A stretch of 32,000 nt of DNA from Halogeometricum borinquense DSM 11551 (GTDB lineage Archaea; Halobacteriota; Halobacteria; Halobacteriales; Haloferacaceae). Location of the stretch: positions 2,580,001-2,612,000 of the forward strand of contig NC_014729.1 in assembly GCF_000172995.2 (NCBI RefSeq). Direction: 5' to 3'. Both the position numbers and the translations under genes were made by a program. A model generated the notes under the pieces. The model did not search any database. It had not been told where the DNA came from and saw only the letters and a list, made by a program, of their open reading frames with translations. Shown in pieces: positions 18,207-21,462 of the stretch. The number at the start of each line of letters is the position of its first letter. The first letter of the stretch is position 1.

Positions 18207-18279
18207 GTCGAACTCCCGGCTATCCGCTTAGGCCGATGCTCGTTCCGAGAATAAATTCGTAAGCGAAGCGTCTCGTCTT

Positions 18280-18333
18280 CCGGATTCTGAACCACACTCG
18301 CTCACTCCGTTCGCTCGCTGGTTCAGAATCCGG
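18280..18333. repeat. perfect 14-bp-stem hairpin with T-arm-like arms and the CTCACTCCGTTCGC core in its loop
   Basis: ccggattctgaacc (18280-18293) and ggttcagaatccgg (18320-18333) are exact reverse complements. The 26-nt loop contains ctcactccgttcgc at 18301-18314. The arm resembles the tRNA-Phe T-arm ccggatttgaacc with one extra base. Confidence 0.9.
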
Positions 18334-18384
18334 TCGGGTCGAACTTTCAGAACCCGCCACGCTCGGTAGTCGGGTTCAGAGAAG

Positions 18385-18470
18385 TGCCGCCTCCCGGATT
18401 TGAACTTCCGGCGAGCAAGCTCGCCGACTCGCCGCTCACTCCGTTCGCGGCGACGGGGACAGCTCGATCT
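18385..18470 (-). other. truncated duplicate of the tRNA-Phe 3' half (positions ~36-73) split by a 48-49 nt structured insert
   Basis: 18385-18405 is identical to 18518-18538, and 18455-18470 is identical to 18540-18555. The intervening 18406-18454 folds into two hairpins (ggcgag/ctcgcc and tcgccgc/gcggcga). No 5' half (acceptor 5' strand or D-arm) is present. Confidence 0.85.
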
Positions 18471-18517
18471 CCCGTGAAGGACAGAAGACTCTCGAACAGA
18501 AATTGTTCGCAGGAAAA

Positions 18518-18591
18518 TGCCGCCTCCCGGATTTGAACCGGGGACAGCTCGATCTTCAGTCGAGTGCTCTCCCAGTCTGAGCTAAGGCGGC
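18518..18591 (-). tRNA. tRNA-Phe: tRNA-Phe (anticodon GAA)
   Basis: The reverse complement is GCCGCCTTAGCTCAGACTGGGAGAGCACTCGACTGAAGATCGAGCTGTCCCCGGTTCAAATCCGGGAGGCGGCA. It folds into a full cloverleaf (7-bp acceptor, CTCGA/TCGAG anticodon stem, loop CTGAAGA, CCCGG/CCGGG T stem). No CCA is encoded. An oligo-T run follows, and an A/T-rich box (tttttgaatc in gene sense) lies about 25-30 nt upstream. Confidence 0.95.
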
Positions 18592-18645
18592 GCGTTTTGA
18601 GAGAGGCCGATGATTCAAAAAAGGGTTTCGATGTGTCGCCGCGCC

Positions 18646-19182
18646 CTACGTCACTTTCCACTCATCGGTGAACGTCTCGTTGCCCGAATTCCACGTCACC
18701 GTCGTGTTCGCCGTCACATGGCCGTCGTTCCGTTTTACGGACAGTGCATCAAGCAAGCCAACCTGAACACGCTTCGTCATCGTTTTCGATTCGCCGGAAT
18801 CGAGTTCCGAGACCGATTCGTTTCCTTGCCAGACCACTGTATCCCCGGTTTCTAACTGAGTCTGAACGGTGACATCCTTCGCCATCTCATCCCCGGTATT
18901 CGTGGCGGTGATAGTCACGTTTCGACAGGTGAACCCGCAGGTCGAGATATTCCAGATATCGAACTCGAACTGCCGGTCATCAGATTGGTCCGCCGTCGAG
19001 TTGGGACTCGCGGCTGAATCGGATACGTCCTGTGGGGCCGAGGTCACTGGTGCGTCGCCGACGGATGCCTGAGCCGCCGGTATCGCACCGGCACCGATAC
19101 CCGATGCGACGACGAGGACGACGACGCCAAGCGTGAATATTCGACCGACCGTTTTGACAGAGTTCCAGCGTGGGAATGCCAT
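18646..19182 (-). CDS. secreted hypothetical protein with an Ig/CARDB-like beta-sandwich domain
   Basis: Signal peptide (..VVLVVASGIGAGAIPAAQA|S), an acidic S/T-rich linker, then ..NVTITATNTGDEMAKDVTVQTQL...ELDSGESKTMTKRV.. reminiscent of CARDB-type domains. Several N-x-S/T sequons are present. Confidence 0.55.
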   Translation of the reverse strand: MAFPRWNSVKTVGRIFTLGVVVLVVASGIGAGAIPAAQASVGDAPVTSAPQDVSDSAASPNSTADQSDDRQFEFDIWNISTCGFTCRNVTITATNTGDEMAKDVTVQTQLETGDTVVWQGNESVSELDSGESKTMTKRVQVGLLDALSVKRNDGHVTANTTVTWNSGNETFTDEWKVT

Positions 19183-19675
19183 GGCAATTGCAGAGTGGTT
19201 CTTAGTAATGAATACTGCGAGAGAATATCAATTCTGATTCTAGCAGAGATTCCTTCTTTTCATGCCGTTCTGTGAAAATTCAGACCCCCAGTCTCGATAC
19301 CGACCGATTACAGCAACTAAACCAGACATATTTCGCCTTTTCCTTGAGATTACCGGGGAAGCATGTGCAGAGATATAGTTGCGCTACTATATACTGGAGT
19401 CAATTTTTTATTTGATATCGGTATCTGAACTTCAACGATGAGTTTCACGAACTCGATACAGCCACCCAGACAGAGCATAAAAACACGCCACCGTATAGCG
19501 ATCCCAGATGCACCGAACAAAAGTGGACTCGGATGGAGTCAGGGGGAGTGCGGTCAGCGCGGCGTTCTGGTCGCAAACAGGCGAACGTACAGCAGACGGT
19601 TCCCCGCGGGAGCAACCGTAGCAGACAGCCAGTAGCGTTGAGCACTGAGTCGAACCACGGCTTCGTCAACCGACA

Positions 19676-20113
19676 TTACAGGCGGCCGCTGCCGACGTAC
19701 GCGAGTCCGAGACTCCCTACGATAATCGACGCGCTGAGTGCGGCTTCGGGCAACTGAAAGAAGTGGTCTCCGAGCGCACCGACCAGTACGAACGCTCCCG
19801 CGACGGCGGCCGGGAGTGGATGCGCCGCCAACTGCCGAACGAAAGCGCGAACCGACCAGTAGACCATCCGCAGTTGCGACGCGACAGCGGCTCCGACCGG
19901 ACGGTTCCCATCCGGATTCTCCGCCGAAACGAACCCGTCGAGGCGGTCGCGGTGAATCGTCACGATTTCACCGGTGTTGCTCCGCCGTCTGTCGGCGTCC
20001 GCAACCCGAAGGAGCGTGACCGTCTCGTCGTCGGTGCCGACAACCCGGTAGACGCCGTCCGAAACAGCTGCGTCGTCTGCCCTGTAATGGTCGTAGATGG
20101 CGGGTGCAGTCAT
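19676..20113 (-). CDS. hypothetical protein (soluble N-terminal domain plus two C-terminal TM helices)
   Basis: Acidic N-terminal ~75 aa and a hydrophobic C-terminus (..LPAAVAGAFVLVGALG.., ..SASIIVGSLGLAYVG..). Codon usage is GC-rich like the host. No recognisable family. Confidence 0.5.
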   Translation of the reverse strand: MTAPAIYDHYRADDAAVSDGVYRVVGTDDETVTLLRVADADRRRSNTGEIVTIHRDRLDGFVSAENPDGNRPVGAAVASQLRMVYWSVRAFVRQLAAHPLPAAVAGAFVLVGALGDHFFQLPEAALSASIIVGSLGLAYVGSGRL

Positions 20114-20260
20114 ATCCGAGCGGTATGTTAGCGAATGAGTATAAAGTTGCAGTCCGAGCGTGGACGCTCACTCGCTTCGTTCGTCGGGACGAACGACTGT
20201 CGATCATTGTCGTGCTTGAAACCCACAAAAAATACTCGTACGGCGATATCTCGGTGTTCG

Positions 20261-20962
20261 TTACCCCGATAGATCATCAATCGTGTAATACACCTTTATC
20301 TCACCAGGATTCCCGCGGTCTGAATCGATTGGCACGTTCTGACTGACTTCCCCGCGTGGACCGCACGCAAGGGTAATGTCCATCGTGTTACTGCCTTCGT
20401 CGGGGCGGCCGGTAAACCAATCCGATGGGGGTTCCCGTTCGGTAACTTTGGTCGTCAGCAGCTTATTCTCAGACCCTCCCTGGGGAACTTTGAAGTTATC
20501 AATCGACGCGCCAAGCGTCTGAGTCGATCCAGTGGGTAGTTTAACGCGAGTGCGTTCGGACTGGCCGCCGTGAATGTCGTGTTCGATTGTCAGCTCTAAC
20601 GCACCCTCTCCCACCCCCTGACCGCTGATAAACTCGACTTTCTCAGCACGGACTGTCACTTCACATTCGTCAGTCCAATCGTCATCGGGACTACCAGCGA
20701 TTGCACCGGTATGAACCTGCACGTGGTCGGGGTTCTCGATGTCAACTTTCTTGATCCCACCGTAGAGGCGGTATCCGTCAGCCTGACCCCATACTGTTCC
20801 GTTCACAGTGCTGCCGTTAACTTGGTCTCCTTGGCCTTTGCTGACGGAAACTCCACCTAGCCTGCCCTCGACTTTTTCGACCTGACCGGTGGCCTGAATG
20901 GTGTAGTCGGATTTTCCATTTCCTAAGCCTTCCATCACGACGTAGTGTTTTGGTTCAGCCAT
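20261..20962 (-). CDS. orphan hypothetical protein, predicted beta-rich, no signal peptide
   Basis: A clean 233-aa ORF with a strong A/T-rich TATA region (taatataatcattaataatg, gene sense) directly upstream. It is G/T/V/Q-rich and visibly lower in GC than its neighbours. I recognise no domain. Confidence 0.5.
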   Translation of the reverse strand: MAEPKHYVVMEGLGNGKSDYTIQATGQVEKVEGRLGGVSVSKGQGDQVNGSTVNGTVWGQADGYRLYGGIKKVDIENPDHVQVHTGAIAGSPDDDWTDECEVTVRAEKVEFISGQGVGEGALELTIEHDIHGGQSERTRVKLPTGSTQTLGASIDNFKVPQGGSENKLLTTKVTEREPPSDWFTGRPDEGSNTMDITLACGPRGEVSQNVPIDSDRGNPGEIKVYYTIDDLSG

Positions 20963-21163
20963 ATCACATCACACATTATTAATGATTATATTACTAACAC
21001 TTGGTTTTTATGCCCGTCCTTCACAAGCACATCGCTGGCAAGTCAGAGAACTGTTCGGTGAGCGTGTCGAACGACCTCTTTTCGGGGGTTGCAGAAGAGT
21101 TGTCGGCGGAGTTGGACGGCTCGCAAAGATGTGAAACTCACTGCTCAAAACGTGCAGAATGGA

Positions 21164-21389
21164 TGGGCTCGGGCGGAGTCGAACCTCGGTCGCTCCACTC
21201 ACTCCGTTCGCTTTGCTCCCTGATTCGACTCCTTGTCGTCCACTCAGACCACGGACGACTTGCTATCGCTCGCAGATTTCAGTGGGCTCGGGCGGAGTCG
21301 AACCACGAGGACGTTGCTTCGCTCGTCCTCTGGGTTCCATCCGACCTCTCGTCGCAGAAATCCTGCTCGCTGTCGCTCGCAGATTTCAG
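21164..21389 (-). repeat. two tandem truncated copies of the tRNA-Val 3' end (T-arm, acceptor 3' strand and trailer) with hairpin-rich spacers
   Basis: tgggctcgggcggagtcgaacc occurs at 21164-21185, 21283-21304 and within the gene at 21390-21411. A 40-nt block, tcgctcgcagatttcagtgggctcgggcggagtcgaacca, is repeated exactly at 21266-21305 and 21373-21412. Spacer hairpins are 21175-21183/21224-21232, 21235-21241/21253-21259 and 21307-21313/21324-21330. Confidence 0.9.
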
Positions 21390-21462
21390 TGGGCTCGGGC
21401 GGAGTCGAACCACCGATCTCTTCCTTGTAAGGGAAGCGTCATGACCACTAGACCACGAGCCC
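21390..21462 (-). tRNA. tRNA-Val: tRNA-Val (anticodon UAC)
   Basis: The reverse complement is GGGCTCGTGGTCTAGTGGTCATGACGCTTCCCTTACAAGGAAGAGATCGGTGGTTCGACTCCGCCCGAGCCCA. It folds into a cloverleaf with CTTCC/GGAAG anticodon stem, loop CTTACAA and GGTGG/CCGCC T stem. Confidence 0.93.

What the first reader, a model, noticed from the sequence alone, without database searches (positions are those of the whole stretch)
18301..21211. Identical 14-nt core CTCACTCCGTTCGC in hairpin regions downstream of two different tRNA genes
The exact 14-mer ctcactccgttcgc occurs three times: 18301-18314, 18435-18448 and 21198-21211. Each copy lies in the loop region of a strong hairpin, with stems of 14 bp, 7 bp and 9 bp respectively. 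Each copy also directly abuts a fragment or look-alike of a tRNA T-arm: tRNA-Phe-like for the first two and tRNA-Val-like for the third.

The stem sequences differ with the neighbouring tRNA, but the loop core is invariant. That is not what simple duplication of one locus would produce. A degenerate fourth copy (ctcactc-gctt-cgttcg, 20167-20183, next to a cgttcg/cgaacg hairpin) lies between the two island ORFs.

All copies are on the same strand as the tRNAs, so they could be co-transcribed as 3' trailers reading GCGAACGGAGUGAG. Three readings are possible:
- a miniature non-autonomous element that inserts at or copies tRNA T-arms
- the conserved core of an att or recombination site of an element family that uses several tRNAs
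- a structured RNA motif for processing, termination or protein binding

I do not recognise it as a described element.
Basis: seen in the sequence. Interest (0 to 1): 0.72.

Follow-up and report, generated by a model that had tools for sequence, protein, structure and literature searches.

The report
Hairpin modules trailing haloarchaeal tRNA genes
The repeated 14-mer is the tip of a small, highly conserved hairpin inside ~110-130-base modules that sit just after many tRNA genes of salt-loving archaea; each module ends in a copy of the tRNA's own last 22 bases, and I found no published description of them.

Summary
CTCACTCCGTTCGC occurs exactly three times (none expected by chance), on the tRNA strand, at hairpin tips beside tRNA-Phe-like or tRNA-Val-like T-arm copies. 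The fourth "degenerate" copy is not supported.

On the tRNA strand the motif reads GCGAAC-GNA-GUGAGC. Covariation shows it is a mini-hairpin, not an open loop: two Watson-Crick pairs, a tandem G·A, two more pairs and a 3-4 nt cap.

It caps a stereotyped module: tRNA, T-rich trailer hairpin, arm antisense to the T-loop, conserved centre, then a copy of the tRNA's T-loop-to-3' end (modal 22 nt).

I found more than 69 such modules behind at least 15 tRNA identities in hypersaline metagenomes and named Halobacteria. They often form tandem arrays spaced about 113 nt apart. Arm and T-loop covary (p = 2e-12). G·U outnumbers A·C 32 to 9, so the tRNA-sense strand folds as a single strand.

Best reading (0.45): miniature cargo-less insertion modules accreting at the tRNA T-loop recombination site.

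Rivals:
- A host-selected trailer RNA.
- Neutral prophage scars.

The same 15-mer also occurs in unrelated phage contigs and at the expected position of the ColE1 single-strand initiation site.

No Rfam family or paper matched.

The parts
21390..21462 (-). tRNA-Val(TAC) gene. Its last 22 nt (21390-21411) are the sequence repeated downstream.
   Evidence: ARAGORN; Rfam tRNA 68.2 bits; coordinates of the 22-mer.
21355..21389 (-). Trailer hairpin (hp1) directly after tRNA-Val. It has a variable stem (GAAATC/GATTTC) capped by the mini-helix GCGAGC-GACA-GCGAGC (21365-21380).
   Evidence: Sequence. RNA and DNA folds show the same shape. The orthologous Halogeometricum trailer has a different stem and GUGAGC-GACA-GCGAAC, a compensatory U-A to C-G change.
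21283..21354 (-). Val module 2:
- antisense T-arm-like arm, 21331-21342
- apex hairpin GAGGACG-AGCGAAGCAA-CGTCCTC, 21307-21330
- exact 22-nt copy of the tRNA-Val 3' end, 21283-21304

It has no 14-mer.
   Evidence: (D2, D3); RNA fold z -3.07.
21259..21282 (-). Second copy of the tRNA-Val trailer (CTGAAATCTGCGAGCGATAGCAAG), so the direct repeat runs past the tRNA end.
   Evidence: Repeat D3, 48 nt at 96% identity.
21164..21258 (-). Val module 3:
- antisense T-loop arm GGAGTCGAATCAGGG, 21218-21232
- mini-hairpin GCGAAC-GGA-GUGAGU, 21197-21211 (contains the 14-mer)
- third exact 22-nt copy of the tRNA-Val 3' end, 21164-21185
   Evidence: It has the same subtype architecture as metagenome modules L256 and L272.
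18518..18591 (-). tRNA-Phe(GAA) gene.
   Evidence: ARAGORN; Rfam 65.5 bits.
18481..18517 (-). Decayed trailer hairpin after tRNA-Phe. It starts with TTTTCCTGCGAAC (18505-18517), the usual 5' half of hp1 in other loci.
   Evidence: Compare the hp1 consensus TTTTCCTGCGAAC-N-GTGAGCAGTGAAAA in L281 and L259.
18385..18480 (-). Phe module 2, a copy of the tRNA-Phe 3' half interrupted by about 45 nt:
- anticodon-stem/variable-loop copy, 18454-18469
- mini-hairpin 18434-18448 on a 7-bp stem
- second hairpin GGCGAGCTTGCTCGCC, 18410-18425
- 21-nt tRNA 3'-end copy, 18385-18405
   Evidence: (D6, D7). Its 3' ~80 nt (GCTGTCCCC to GGCGGCA) is about 90% identical by eye in Halogeometricum pallidum, although the neighbouring protein is only 61% identical.
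18270..18333 (-). Distal Phe module:
- 15-nt perfect arms (18319-18333 antisense; 18280-18294 T-loop-like TGGTTCAGAATCCGG)
- mini-hairpin 18300-18314
- decayed acceptor copy AAGACGAGAC, 18270-18279
   Evidence: Inverted repeat I2; RNA fold z -5.8 and DNA fold z -4.4.
19647..19658 (-). Isolated 12-nt copy of the tRNA-Val T-loop region (GTGGTTCGACTC), just after ORF 19676-20113. It is a probable decayed right boundary of the two-ORF island that begins after Val module 3.
   Evidence: (D1, D5). Halogeometricum has only one ORF between tRNA-Val and tRNA-Phe.

Best explanation
**What it is (shown).**
- On the tRNA-sense strand the 14-mer belongs to a 15-nt mini-hairpin, GCGAAC-GNA-GUGAGC. Its pairs are G-C, C-G, tandem G·A/A·G, A-U and C-G, closed by a 3-4 nt cap.
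- The mini-hairpin is the apex of a long hairpin. The 3' arm is a copy of the adjacent tRNA's T-loop. The 5' arm is the antisense of that T-arm.
- After the hairpin come a single-stranded copy of the tRNA's T-stem/acceptor 3' strand and discriminator, and often a copy of the tRNA's trailer.
- One module is a trailer hairpin, the antisense arm, the conserved centre and the tRNA 3'-end copy. Modules sit 20-100 nt behind complete tRNA genes, always on the same strand, and often in tandem.
- The window holds two such modules after tRNA-Val and two variant ones after tRNA-Phe.

**How it most likely arises and works (inferred).**
- The modules are miniature, cargo-less, non-autonomous insertion units.
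- They enter at the boundary between the T-stem and T-loop of a tRNA gene, the same point at which haloarchaeal prophages leave a 22-nt tRNA duplication.
- Each unit brings its own T-loop-to-3' end, so the tRNA stays intact. The previous 3' end is pushed downstream, and arrays grow by accretion.
- The element is selected to fold as a single strand of the tRNA-sense polarity. That strand could be a transcript or single-stranded DNA.
- In that fold the antisense arm pairs with the T-loop copy. This either rebuilds a duplex image of the tDNA T-arm or masks the pseudo-3' end. The tandem-G·A mini-hairpin provides a conserved cap or recognition point.

**Not shown:** which enzyme moves the modules, and whether the folded strand is RNA or DNA.
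For: **In the window.**
- Exact 22-nt tRNA-Val 3'-end copies x3 and 21-nt Phe copies x2.
- The trailer is duplicated too (D3).
- The hairpins fold well.

**The family.**
- 69 of those loci have the antisense arm.
- 60 of the 69 have at least 400 nt of upstream sequence. In 56 of these 60 a complete tRNA lies upstream on the same strand, with the motif starting 48-307 nt (mostly 48-110) after its end.
- At least 15 tRNA identities are involved.
- The exact duplicate of the tRNA end is modally 22 nt (14 cases), with 7 more at 23-24 nt. Identity begins at GGTTC.
- Among about 25 tRNAs not selected by the motif, 14 carry a copy of their own last 14 nt 80-170 nt downstream.
- Arrays: of 73 tRNAs, 28 have 1 copy, 22 have 2 and 4 have 3 or more. 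Median spacing is 113 nt.

**Mobility or turnover.**
- The same ~40-nt centre (CAGTCGCGCGCA-M-GAGCACGTCTG) follows Arg, Gly, Ala, Glu, Val, Met, Ser and Ile tRNAs.
- The orthologous tRNA-Val(TAC) carries 0, 1 or 2 modules of different subtypes in the window, L121, L129, L256 and L258.
- A Haloquadratum prophage end is marked by a 22-nt tRNA duplication (PMC3119063).

**Single-strand fold.**
- T-loop position A/G against arm U/C: AU 39, GC 19, GU 4, AC 0 (Fisher p = 2e-12).
- In the arms G·T occurs 32 times and A·C 9 times (p = 4e-4).

**Mini-helix.**
- In pattern-unbiased instances the inner pair is AU 7, GC 8, mismatch 0. The outer pair is CG 11, UA 3, UG 1, mismatch 0.
- On alignment A3, 83.8% of cells are paired against 60.7% in shuffles. 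The covariation score is 0.64 against 0.21, reached by 0 of 500 shuffles, and slid controls stay at or below 0.18.
- The only base that varies within the selected 15-mers is the middle of the cap; all four bases occur there.
Against: - No transposase or integrase accompanies the modules. No recombinase was found among the ten window ORFs scanned, which span about 14-25 kb.
- A ~130-bp unit is too small to excise or circularise as ordinary double-stranded DNA.
- No empty-versus-filled pair from closely related strains was obtained, so insertion itself has not been observed.
- Arrays could also grow by slippage between the 22-nt repeats.
- Arm and T-loop covariation could come from copying rather than selection. 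Only the G·U versus A·C asymmetry argues for selection.
- Phe module 2 is ~90% conserved over its 3' ~80 nt between genera. That fits a host function as well as it fits an old insertion.
- Nearest-neighbour energies give the isolated 15-mer almost no stability: RNA -0.2 kcal/mol and DNA 0 kcal/mol.
Frequencies are therefore not genome-wide estimates.
Confidence: 0.45

Rival explanations
1. **Host-selected trailer RNA.** The modules are transcribed with the tRNA. tRNase Z releases them, and they act as RNA: a read-through terminator or insulator, a stable 3'-trailer small RNA, or a switch in which the antisense arm can pair either with the tRNA's own T-arm or with the downstream copy. Under this view arrays and subtype differences come from local duplication and gene conversion, not insertion.
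For: - Orientation is always the same as the tRNA (56 of 56).
- G·U is favoured over A·C on the sense strand.
- RNA energy parameters predict the mini-helix in context whereas DNA parameters do not.
- The complement strand does not fold.
- Phe module 2 is about 90% conserved over its 3' ~80 nt between genera whose flanking protein is 61% identical.
- The centre carries conserved mismatches (U·U, C·A), as protein-bound RNAs often do.
- The modules are chromosomal rather than viral: 3 hits in 2.9 million viral contigs against more than 120 in metagenomes.
Against: - Most tRNAs are followed at once by a T-rich tract, the usual archaeal stop signal (established knowledge). Much transcription may therefore end before the module.
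- Presence, number and subtype differ between orthologous tRNA loci, and about half of tRNAs lack a module. That is odd for a core processing function.
- An RNA function does not explain why the duplicate is exactly the 22 nt typical of prophage att repeats.
- No transcript data were available.
Confidence: 0.3
2. **Neutral scars.** The tRNA 3'-end copies are leftover attR sites of prophages or plasmids that integrated and were later deleted. The hairpins are remnants of element ends with no present function.
For: - tRNA 3'-end duplication is the hallmark of integrase-mediated insertion. One case is seen directly in L253: tRNA-Val(GAC), then 2.4 kb of AT-rich DNA carrying a tyrosine recombinase-like ORF (347 aa, recognised by its conserved motifs; no Pfam scan was run on it), then a 34-nt attR.
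- L202/L207 is a myovirus-like contig (Baseplate_J) that ends in such fragments.
- The window itself has a two-ORF island bounded by a Val T-loop copy.
Against: - Random decay would not give a constant spacing (median 113 nt, IQR 97-134).
- It would not give a ~40-nt centre identical across many tRNA types and GC contents.
- It would not give arm and T-loop covariation with a G·U bias.
- In L253 the module lies beyond attR, so it predates that element and is independent of it.
- No cultured halovirus carries the module.
Confidence: 0.1
3. **General single-strand recognition module.** The 15-mer is a portable hairpin read by some protein, and its tRNA linkage in haloarchaea is secondary. Candidates are a single-stranded-DNA priming or initiation signal like the PriA primosome assembly site of ColE1 and phiX174, or an L7Ae-type G·A motif in RNA.
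For: - In 120 viral loci with GC from 0.33 to 0.72, 70 of 100 unique contexts extend the 14-mer with C. Many place it on variable complementary stems, including a compensatory G-C to A-T change.
- 589 plasmid records, mostly small ColE1-type, carry CGAACGGAGTGAGCGA. In the one record inspected it lies between ori and rop, where ColE1 plasmids have their ssi / n'-pas site (PMC5935869; PMC3167613).
- One phage family places it beside two DnaA boxes.
- Haloarchaeal plasmids carry it without a tRNA.
Against: - PriA is bacterial (established knowledge), so it cannot explain the archaeal or giant-virus copies.
- The motif has a symmetric 2x2 G·A loop and no 3-nt bulge, so it is not a K-turn.
- Links to terminase genes and contig ends in viral contigs are probably sampling bias.
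- That the plasmid stretch is the functional ssi rests on position and on my memory of the pBR322 sequence. It was not tested.
Confidence: 0.1

Closest known systems
tRNA-gene att duplications left by tyrosine-integrase elements (for example the haloarchaeal prophage with a 22-nt tRNA repeat, PMC3119063), and their decayed or accreted derivatives (CIME-like arrays in bacteria, from my own knowledge)
   Same: - Direct repeats of the tRNA 3' part, with a modal length of 22 nt.
- The tRNA stays intact.
- Tandem accretion downstream of the gene.
- The same left boundary at the T-stem/T-loop junction.
   Different: - Units are only about 110-130 nt, with no integrase and no cargo.
- They carry an internal arm antisense to the T-loop and a conserved centre.
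- They show selection for a single-strand fold.
- In L253 they are distinct from the real integrase element.
Integron attC sites and the CTX-phage folded attP (single-stranded hairpin recombination sites)
   Same: - Imperfect inverted repeats of about 60-110 nt around a central region.
- Structure is conserved more than sequence, and folding is strand-specific.
- Arrays of co-oriented units lie next to one primary site.
- The hairpin stem rebuilds a duplex copy of the target site.
   Different: - No IntI-like or Xer-type partner has been identified.
- Units carry no ORFs.
- The centre is highly conserved in sequence, whereas attC centres are not.
- The host is archaeal and the target is a tRNA T-loop.
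- The resemblance is architectural only and was not tested.
ColE1/phiX174-type single-strand initiation (ssi, n'-pas) hairpins and d(GCGAAGC)-type G·A mini-hairpins
   Same: - Purine-rich GAGCGA / GCGAA words.
- A near-identical 16-mer, CGAACGGAGTGAGCGA, at the expected ssi position of ColE1-type plasmids.
- Folding is possible on one strand only.
   Different: - PriA is absent from archaea.
- The haloarchaeal copies are tied to tRNA 3'-end repeats, not to replication origins.
- The functional identity of the plasmid stretch was not tested here.
t-elements (tRNA-like structures processed by RNase P and tRNase Z in Haloferax; PMC4946936, PMC4326828)
   Same: Both are tRNA-derived sequence downstream of, or between, genes in haloarchaea that could direct RNA end formation.
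   Different: The modules lack any 5' acceptor strand, and their T-loop is sequestered in a long helix. They therefore cannot form the acceptor/T-arm minihelix that those enzymes need.
Kink-turn / K-loop (L7Ae-binding) motifs
   Same: Tandem sheared-type G·A/A·G next to G-C pairs.
   Different: There is no 3-nt bulge or asymmetric loop. The motif is a symmetric 2x2 internal loop in a continuous helix.

Membership tests
Integrase-mediated integrative element at a tRNA gene | Direct repeat of the tRNA 3' segment on both sides of the inserted DNA | tested here: met
   Exact 22-nt repeats x3 for Val and 21-nt repeats x2 for Phe. The modal length is 22 nt in 21 metagenome modules.
Integrase-mediated integrative element at a tRNA gene | A site-specific recombinase gene inside the bounded segment | tested here: not met
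   - The bounded segments are about 110-130 nt with no ORF.
- Pfam scans of ten window ORFs between 14 and 25 kb found no recombinase.
- tblastn with the L253 integrase found homologues in only 2 other loci.
Integrase-mediated integrative element at a tRNA gene | The element can exist as an excised circle with attP | not testable with these tools
   This needs read-level or experimental data. No cultured halovirus carries the module, and only one of the three viral-contig hits, L202, is halovirus-like.
MITE (miniature inverted-repeat transposable element) | Terminal inverted repeats related to a parent transposon, with a short (2-10 bp) target duplication | tested here: not met
   - The inverted repeat is internal, and one arm is the duplicated target itself.
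- The duplication is 22 nt or more.
- The ends of the unit (for example L219, compared by eye) are not inverted repeats.
Integron attC-like folded recombination site | Strand-specific single-strand hairpin of imperfect inverted repeats | tested here: met
   - Mean of 23 enclosing pairs per unit.
- G·T 32 against A·C 9 on the sense strand.
- The G·A mini-helix can form on one strand only.
Integron attC-like folded recombination site | Adjacent integron integrase and attI; cassettes carrying ORFs | tested here: not met
   No integrase lies next to the arrays. Spacing between repeats has a median of 113 nt, which leaves no room for ORFs.
Kink-turn / K-loop | Tandem G·A pairs flanked by a 3-nt bulge and a canonical stem | tested here: not met
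   The tandem G·A sits between Watson-Crick pairs on both sides with no bulge. This holds in all 16 aligned instances.
PriA-type primosome assembly site / ssi | A single-stranded hairpin next to a plasmid or phage origin that recruits PriA | not testable with these tools
   A sequence match to ColE1-type plasmids lies between ori and rop. The literature places ssiA there. Function and archaeal relevance were not tested.
t-element / tRNA-like minihelix | Acceptor stem stacked on a T-arm | tested here: not met
   No sequence complementary to the acceptor 3' strand lies upstream. The T-loop is paired to the antisense arm. Rfam tRNA-type models hit only the true tRNAs.
Any Rfam RNA family | Match to a curated covariance model | tested here: not met
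   Only tRNA, plus chance sub-threshold hits, in the window, in 17 viral loci and in L249.

The most novel reading that the evidence does not exclude
Halobacteria may harbour an archaeal counterpart of integron attC or CTX-phage recombination sites. Small modules would fold as single-stranded DNA so that the hairpin stem rebuilds a duplex copy of the tRNA gene's T-arm. A T-loop-specific tyrosine recombinase would insert them, building cassette-like arrays behind tRNA genes. In this reading the tandem-G·A mini-hairpin at the tip is a cross-domain single-stranded-DNA structural module, shared with the priming sites of bacterial plasmids and phages.
Probability: 0.18. Interest if true: 0.85.

Novelty: new variant of a known kind. 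Interest (0 to 1): 0.68.

Why it matters
**If the modules are real insertion units.**
- tRNA genes of haloarchaea would carry a layered record of recombination at one fixed point.
- A very small element, about 130 nt and with no genes, would have spread across many tRNA identities and genera.
- This gives a concrete substrate for asking how archaeal T-loop-specific recombinases recognise their sites, and whether folded single strands are used outside bacteria.

**If they are host RNAs instead.** Roughly half of haloarchaeal tRNA genes would have an unrecognised structured 3' partner.

**Either way.**
- Genome annotation currently leaves these stretches blank or risks calling them tRNA fragments.
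- The 22-nt copies are potential secondary integration sites that matter when prophage boundaries are mapped.
- The mini-hairpin is a clean example of strand-swapped covariation. It recurs in phages, plasmids and a giant-virus tRNA intron, which makes its partner, or its physical properties, worth measuring.

Tried and rejected
- **Rfam.** Scans of the window, 17 viral loci and a typical module found nothing but tRNAs.
- **Literature.** Searches for the 11-mer and for tRNA-linked repeats, t-elements, haloarchaeal att sites and termination returned only primers, chance hits or general background. None describes this module.
- **Intron-containing or split tRNA genes.** Rejected, because no 5' acceptor strand exists upstream of any module. 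ARAGORN in intron mode gave only implausible kilobase-long introns.
- **K-turn or C/D-box reading.** Rejected, because there is no bulge and no C box.
- **Casposon-like or MITE reading.** Rejected, because there are no terminal inverted repeats and the duplication is 22 nt.
- **Sarcin-ricin loop, Shine-Dalgarno and CsrA-site resemblances.** These were considered from memory and dropped as coincidental.
- **Viral-contig association with terminase genes (about 12 loci) and contig ends.** I judge this to be sampling bias from short, hallmark-selected contigs.
- **Sequencing adapter or assembly artefact.** Rejected, because the motif occurs in isolate genomes, in named species and at orthologous loci.
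- **The single genome-contig scan.** The window's own genome was not in the collection (best hits 61-66% identity), so no whole-genome copy count was possible.
- **MAFFT alignment.** It misaligned mini-hairpins with 5-nt caps, so those were left out of the formal count.

Full report
**1. The observation**

The 14-mer CTCACTCCGTTCGC occurs exactly three times in the window, at 18301, 18435 and 21198 on the + strand. No exact match appeared in 100 dinucleotide-preserving shuffles.

The only tRNA genes are tRNA-Phe(GAA) at 18518-18591 and tRNA-Val(TAC) at 21389/90-21462. Both lie on the minus strand, so the motif reads GCGAACGGAGTGAG on the tRNA-sense strand.

| Copy | Stem | RNA fold z-score |
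|---|---|---|
| 1 | 15-nt perfect inverted arms | -5.8 |
| 2 | 7-bp stem | -2.7 |
| 3 | 9 bp or more | -1.5 |

The T-arm neighbours are more than look-alikes:
- The 22-mer GGTTCGACTCCGCCCGAGCCCA (T-loop to discriminator of tRNA-Val) is present three times, at 21390, 21283 and 21164.
- The 21-mer GTTCAAATCCGGGAGGCGGCA of tRNA-Phe is present twice, at 18518 and 18385.

The proposed fourth copy at 20167-20183 shares words but not the structure, and folds no better than shuffles.

**2. The motif is a mini-hairpin**

Relatives show that only one base inside the 15-mer varies, the middle one of GGA. It is C in Halogeometricum and Halorubellus, A in other loci, and all four bases occur in metagenomes.

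Read as GCGAAC-GNA-GUGAGC, the two hexamers pair as G-C, C-G, G·A, A·G, A-U, C-G.

The trailer hairpins directly after tRNA-Val use the same two hexamers with the strands swapped:
- GUGAGC-GACA-GCGAAC in Halogeometricum.
- GCGAGC-GACA-GCGAGC in the window (21365-21380), which is a U-A to C-G compensatory change.

Further variants were found:
- GCGAGC-GGA-GCGAGC (L254).
- GUGAAC-GNA-GUGAAC (L143, L309).
- GCGACC-GGA-GGGAGC (two plasmids).

I then searched with a pattern that allows all 16 combinations at the two variable pairs. Among instances that sit on a flanking stem, the counts were:

| Pair | Standard pairs | Mismatches | Fisher p |
|---|---|---|---|
| Inner | A-U 7, G-C 8 | 0 | 1.6e-4 |
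| Outer | C-G 11, U-A 3, U·G 1 | 0 | 0.009 |

A formal count on 16 aligned instances gave:
- 83.8% paired cells, against 60.7% in shuffles.
- A covariation score of 0.64 against 0.21, reached by 0 of 500 shuffles.
- Slid controls at or below 0.18.

Energy models add little:
- The isolated 15-mer scores -0.2 kcal/mol as RNA and 0 kcal/mol as DNA.
- The complementary strand does not fold.

That tandem G·A in a C-GA-G context and C-GNA-G caps are unusually stable is established knowledge. These parameter sets capture it only partly, and I did not test it.

**3. The module around it**

A scan of metagenome contigs for the motif followed within 33 nt by a T-loop-like word stopped at its 120-locus limit.

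Sixty-nine loci, with GC mostly 0.5-0.7 and many carrying names that suggest hypersaline sources, share one architecture:
- an arm antisense to a T-arm (for example GGATTTGAACC);
- a spacer;
- the mini-hairpin inside a centre that is often about 40 nt and conserved (CAGTCGCGCGCA-M-GAGCACGTCTG);
- a T-loop copy that pairs with the arm, giving a mean of 23 enclosing pairs;
- the T-stem/acceptor 3' strand and the discriminator.

Sixty of the 69 loci have at least 400 nt of upstream sequence. In 56 of these 60 a complete tRNA gene lies upstream on the same strand, with the motif starting 48-307 nt (mostly 48-110) after its end. At least 15 tRNA identities are represented.

The copy of the tRNA end is exact over 22 nt in 14 cases and over 23-24 nt in 7. 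Identity starts at GGTTC, and the tRNA's own trailer is often copied as well.

Between the tRNA and the module there is usually a first hairpin. It has a T-rich 5' arm, the same mini-helix and an A-rich 3' arm.

Tandem arrays are common. Of 73 tRNAs, 28 have one downstream copy of their end, 22 have two and 4 have three or more. Median spacing is 113 nt.

Among about 25 tRNAs that the motif did not select, 14 have such a copy 80-170 nt downstream. This includes 5 of the 9 tRNAs in genome loci that were fetched only through a flanking protein.

The window therefore holds ordinary members of this family:
- Two modules lie after tRNA-Val. Module 2 has the apex AGCGAAGCAA instead of the 15-mer.
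- Two lie after tRNA-Phe. The distal one is a decayed classic module.
- The proximal Phe module is a variant in which the mini-hairpin and a second hairpin interrupt a longer copy of the tRNA-Phe 3' half.
- Over its 3' ~80 nt that variant is about 90% identical (by eye, on the alignment) in Halogeometricum pallidum, where the neighbouring protein is only 61% identical.

**4. Which strand and what state**

The base after GTTC in the T-loop copy (A or G) pairs with U or C in the arm. The counts are A-U 39, G-C 19, G·U 4 and A·C 0 (Fisher p = 2e-12).

Over the arms as a whole G·T occurs 32 times and A·C 9 times (binomial p = 4e-4). This asymmetry, and the one-strand nature of the G·A helix, show that the tRNA-sense strand is selected to fold as a single strand.

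Whether that strand is RNA or DNA is not settled:
- RNA energy parameters predict the mini-helix in context.
- The T-tracts directly after the tRNAs, and the kinship with bacterial single-strand initiation sites, point the other way.

**5. Relation to mobile elements**

Locus L253 is decisive on one point. It contains, in order:
- tRNA-Val(GAC);
- 2.4 kb of AT-rich DNA with an ORF whose C-terminus looks SHOCT-like and a tyrosine recombinase-like ORF (both recognised by eye from their sequences; neither was scanned against Pfam);
- a clean 34-nt attR;
- only then the trailer hairpin and the module with a third copy of the tRNA end.

The module was therefore already resident behind the tRNA and is not the end of that element.

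Other evidence:
- L202/L207 is a myovirus-like contig (Baseplate_J), and it shows the same order.
- The T-loop-coupled pattern has only 3 hits in 2.9 million viral contigs, none in cultured phages, and 4 in haloarchaeal plasmids.
- The 22-nt duplicate with a fixed left boundary matches the 22-nt tRNA repeat that marks a Haloquadratum prophage end (PMC3119063).
- The same centre follows many different tRNAs.
- The orthologous tRNA-Val(TAC) carries 0, 1 or 2 modules of different subtypes.

These facts fit small units that insert at the T-loop recombination point, bring their own tRNA 3' end, and push older copies downstream. They fit neutral scars poorly, because spacing, centre and pairing are all conserved.

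A host RNA function remains a serious rival.

**6. Beyond haloarchaea**

Findings there:
- In 70 of 100 distinct contexts, with GC from 0.33 to 0.72, the next base is C. This completes the 15-mer.
- Many copies sit on unrelated complementary stems. One phage family shows a G-C to A-T compensatory change.
- In that family the hairpin lies beside two DnaA boxes and upstream of a terminase gene. I regard the terminase and contig-end associations as sampling bias.
- A BLAST of a 30-mer found 589 plasmid records, mostly small ColE1-type replicons.
- In pSMS35_3 the stretch CCGAACGGAGTGAGCGAATGAGCGAGGAAGCGGAA lies between ori and rop. That is where ColE1 plasmids have their PriA-dependent single-strand initiation site (PMC5935869, PMC3167613).
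- A giant-virus contig has the motif inside the intron of a tRNA-Gly-like gene.

The mini-hairpin is therefore a portable module used in all three domains' mobile DNA. Why is unexplained.

**7. What it is not**

- No Rfam family matches.
- It is not a K-turn, because there is no bulge.
- It is not a t-element, because there is no acceptor stem.
- It is not a MITE or casposon, because it has no terminal inverted repeats and the duplication is 22 nt.
- It is not a tRNA with an intron.
- No paper in the searchable library describes it, including a 2021 review of archaeal tyrosine recombinases and the Haloquadratum mobile-element catalogue.

**8. Limits**

- The window's genome was not in the genome collection, so I could not count copies per genome.
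- The metagenome set was selected for the motif plus a T-loop and was truncated.
- The taxonomy of those contigs is inferred from GC content, sample names and similarity to named Halobacteria.
- No transcript data or strain-level comparisons were available.
- Insertion has not been observed directly.

**9. Verdict**

I rate this a new variant of a known kind: site-specific insertion at tRNA genes, here as gene-less hairpin modules with a conserved G·A mini-hairpin. Interest is 0.68.

Noticed in passing
window 19647-21163: Two co-oriented ORFs (20261-20962 and 19676-20113; no Pfam hit) lie between the Val modules and an isolated 12-nt copy of the tRNA-Val T-loop at 19647-19658. Halogeometricum has only one ORF between tRNA-Val and tRNA-Phe, a homologue of 18646-19182. 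This looks like a small integrase-less island bounded by Val att-like repeats.
   Followed up: partly
L203 4250-4450 (same giant-virus MAG contig as L240): A tRNA-Gly(UCC)-like gene in a giant-virus MAG carries AGCGAACGAAGTGAGCG inside what looks like an intron at the canonical position. The next tRNA (Asn-like) has an intron without the motif.
   Followed up: partly
L204 (E. coli pSMS35_3) 395-435; 589 plasmid records: Small ColE1-type plasmids carry CCGAACGGAGTGAGCGAATGAGCGAGGAAGCGGAA between ori and rop. This is the expected place of the PriA-dependent single-strand initiation site, and it is made of the same G·A words as the haloarchaeal mini-hairpin.
   Followed up: partly
L006, L018, L038, L049, L059, L109 (alignment): A family of low-GC phage contigs has a conserved intergenic block about 130 nt upstream of the terminase gene. 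It contains a G6-TT-C6 hairpin, the mini-hairpin on a covarying stem, and two DnaA boxes (TTATCCACA).
   Followed up: partly
L253 2702-5400 (motif-oriented coordinates used, i.e. the strand on which the motif reads GCGAAC...): A compact 2.4-kb AT-rich element is integrated into tRNA-Val(GAC) with a 34-nt att repeat. It carries a tyrosine recombinase-like ORF and an ORF with a SHOCT-like C-terminus (both judged by eye, no Pfam scan). The repeat is longer than the 22 nt of the hairpin modules, which implies a different crossover point.
   Followed up: yes
L123 17227-18350: In Haloarcula onubensis a homologue of the L253 integrase (41% identity) lies directly beside tRNA-Leu(CAA). This is probably another integrated element.
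   Followed up: no
L047, L053, L064, L090, L222, L250, L278, L279, L305: A high-GC, apparently bacterial family places the 15-mer after a CCCCC-TCGG-GGGGG hairpin (…GGGGGGCA-GCGAACGNAGTGAGC-GTGGGGG…). Several copies are in proviruses of isolate genomes.
   Followed up: no
L326 2495-2530 and L327 2495-2530: Plasmids of Haloplanus aerogenes and Natrinema pellirubrum share a variant centre, GCGCGCGCA-GCGACC-GGA-GGGAGC-GAGCAC. It lies in the intergenic region next to a TFB-family gene and is not linked to a tRNA.
   Followed up: partly
L028 1-900: A giant-virus MAG has a ~394-nt tandem repeat, and each copy carries the 15-mer on a TGGTGC/GCACCA stem.
   Followed up: no
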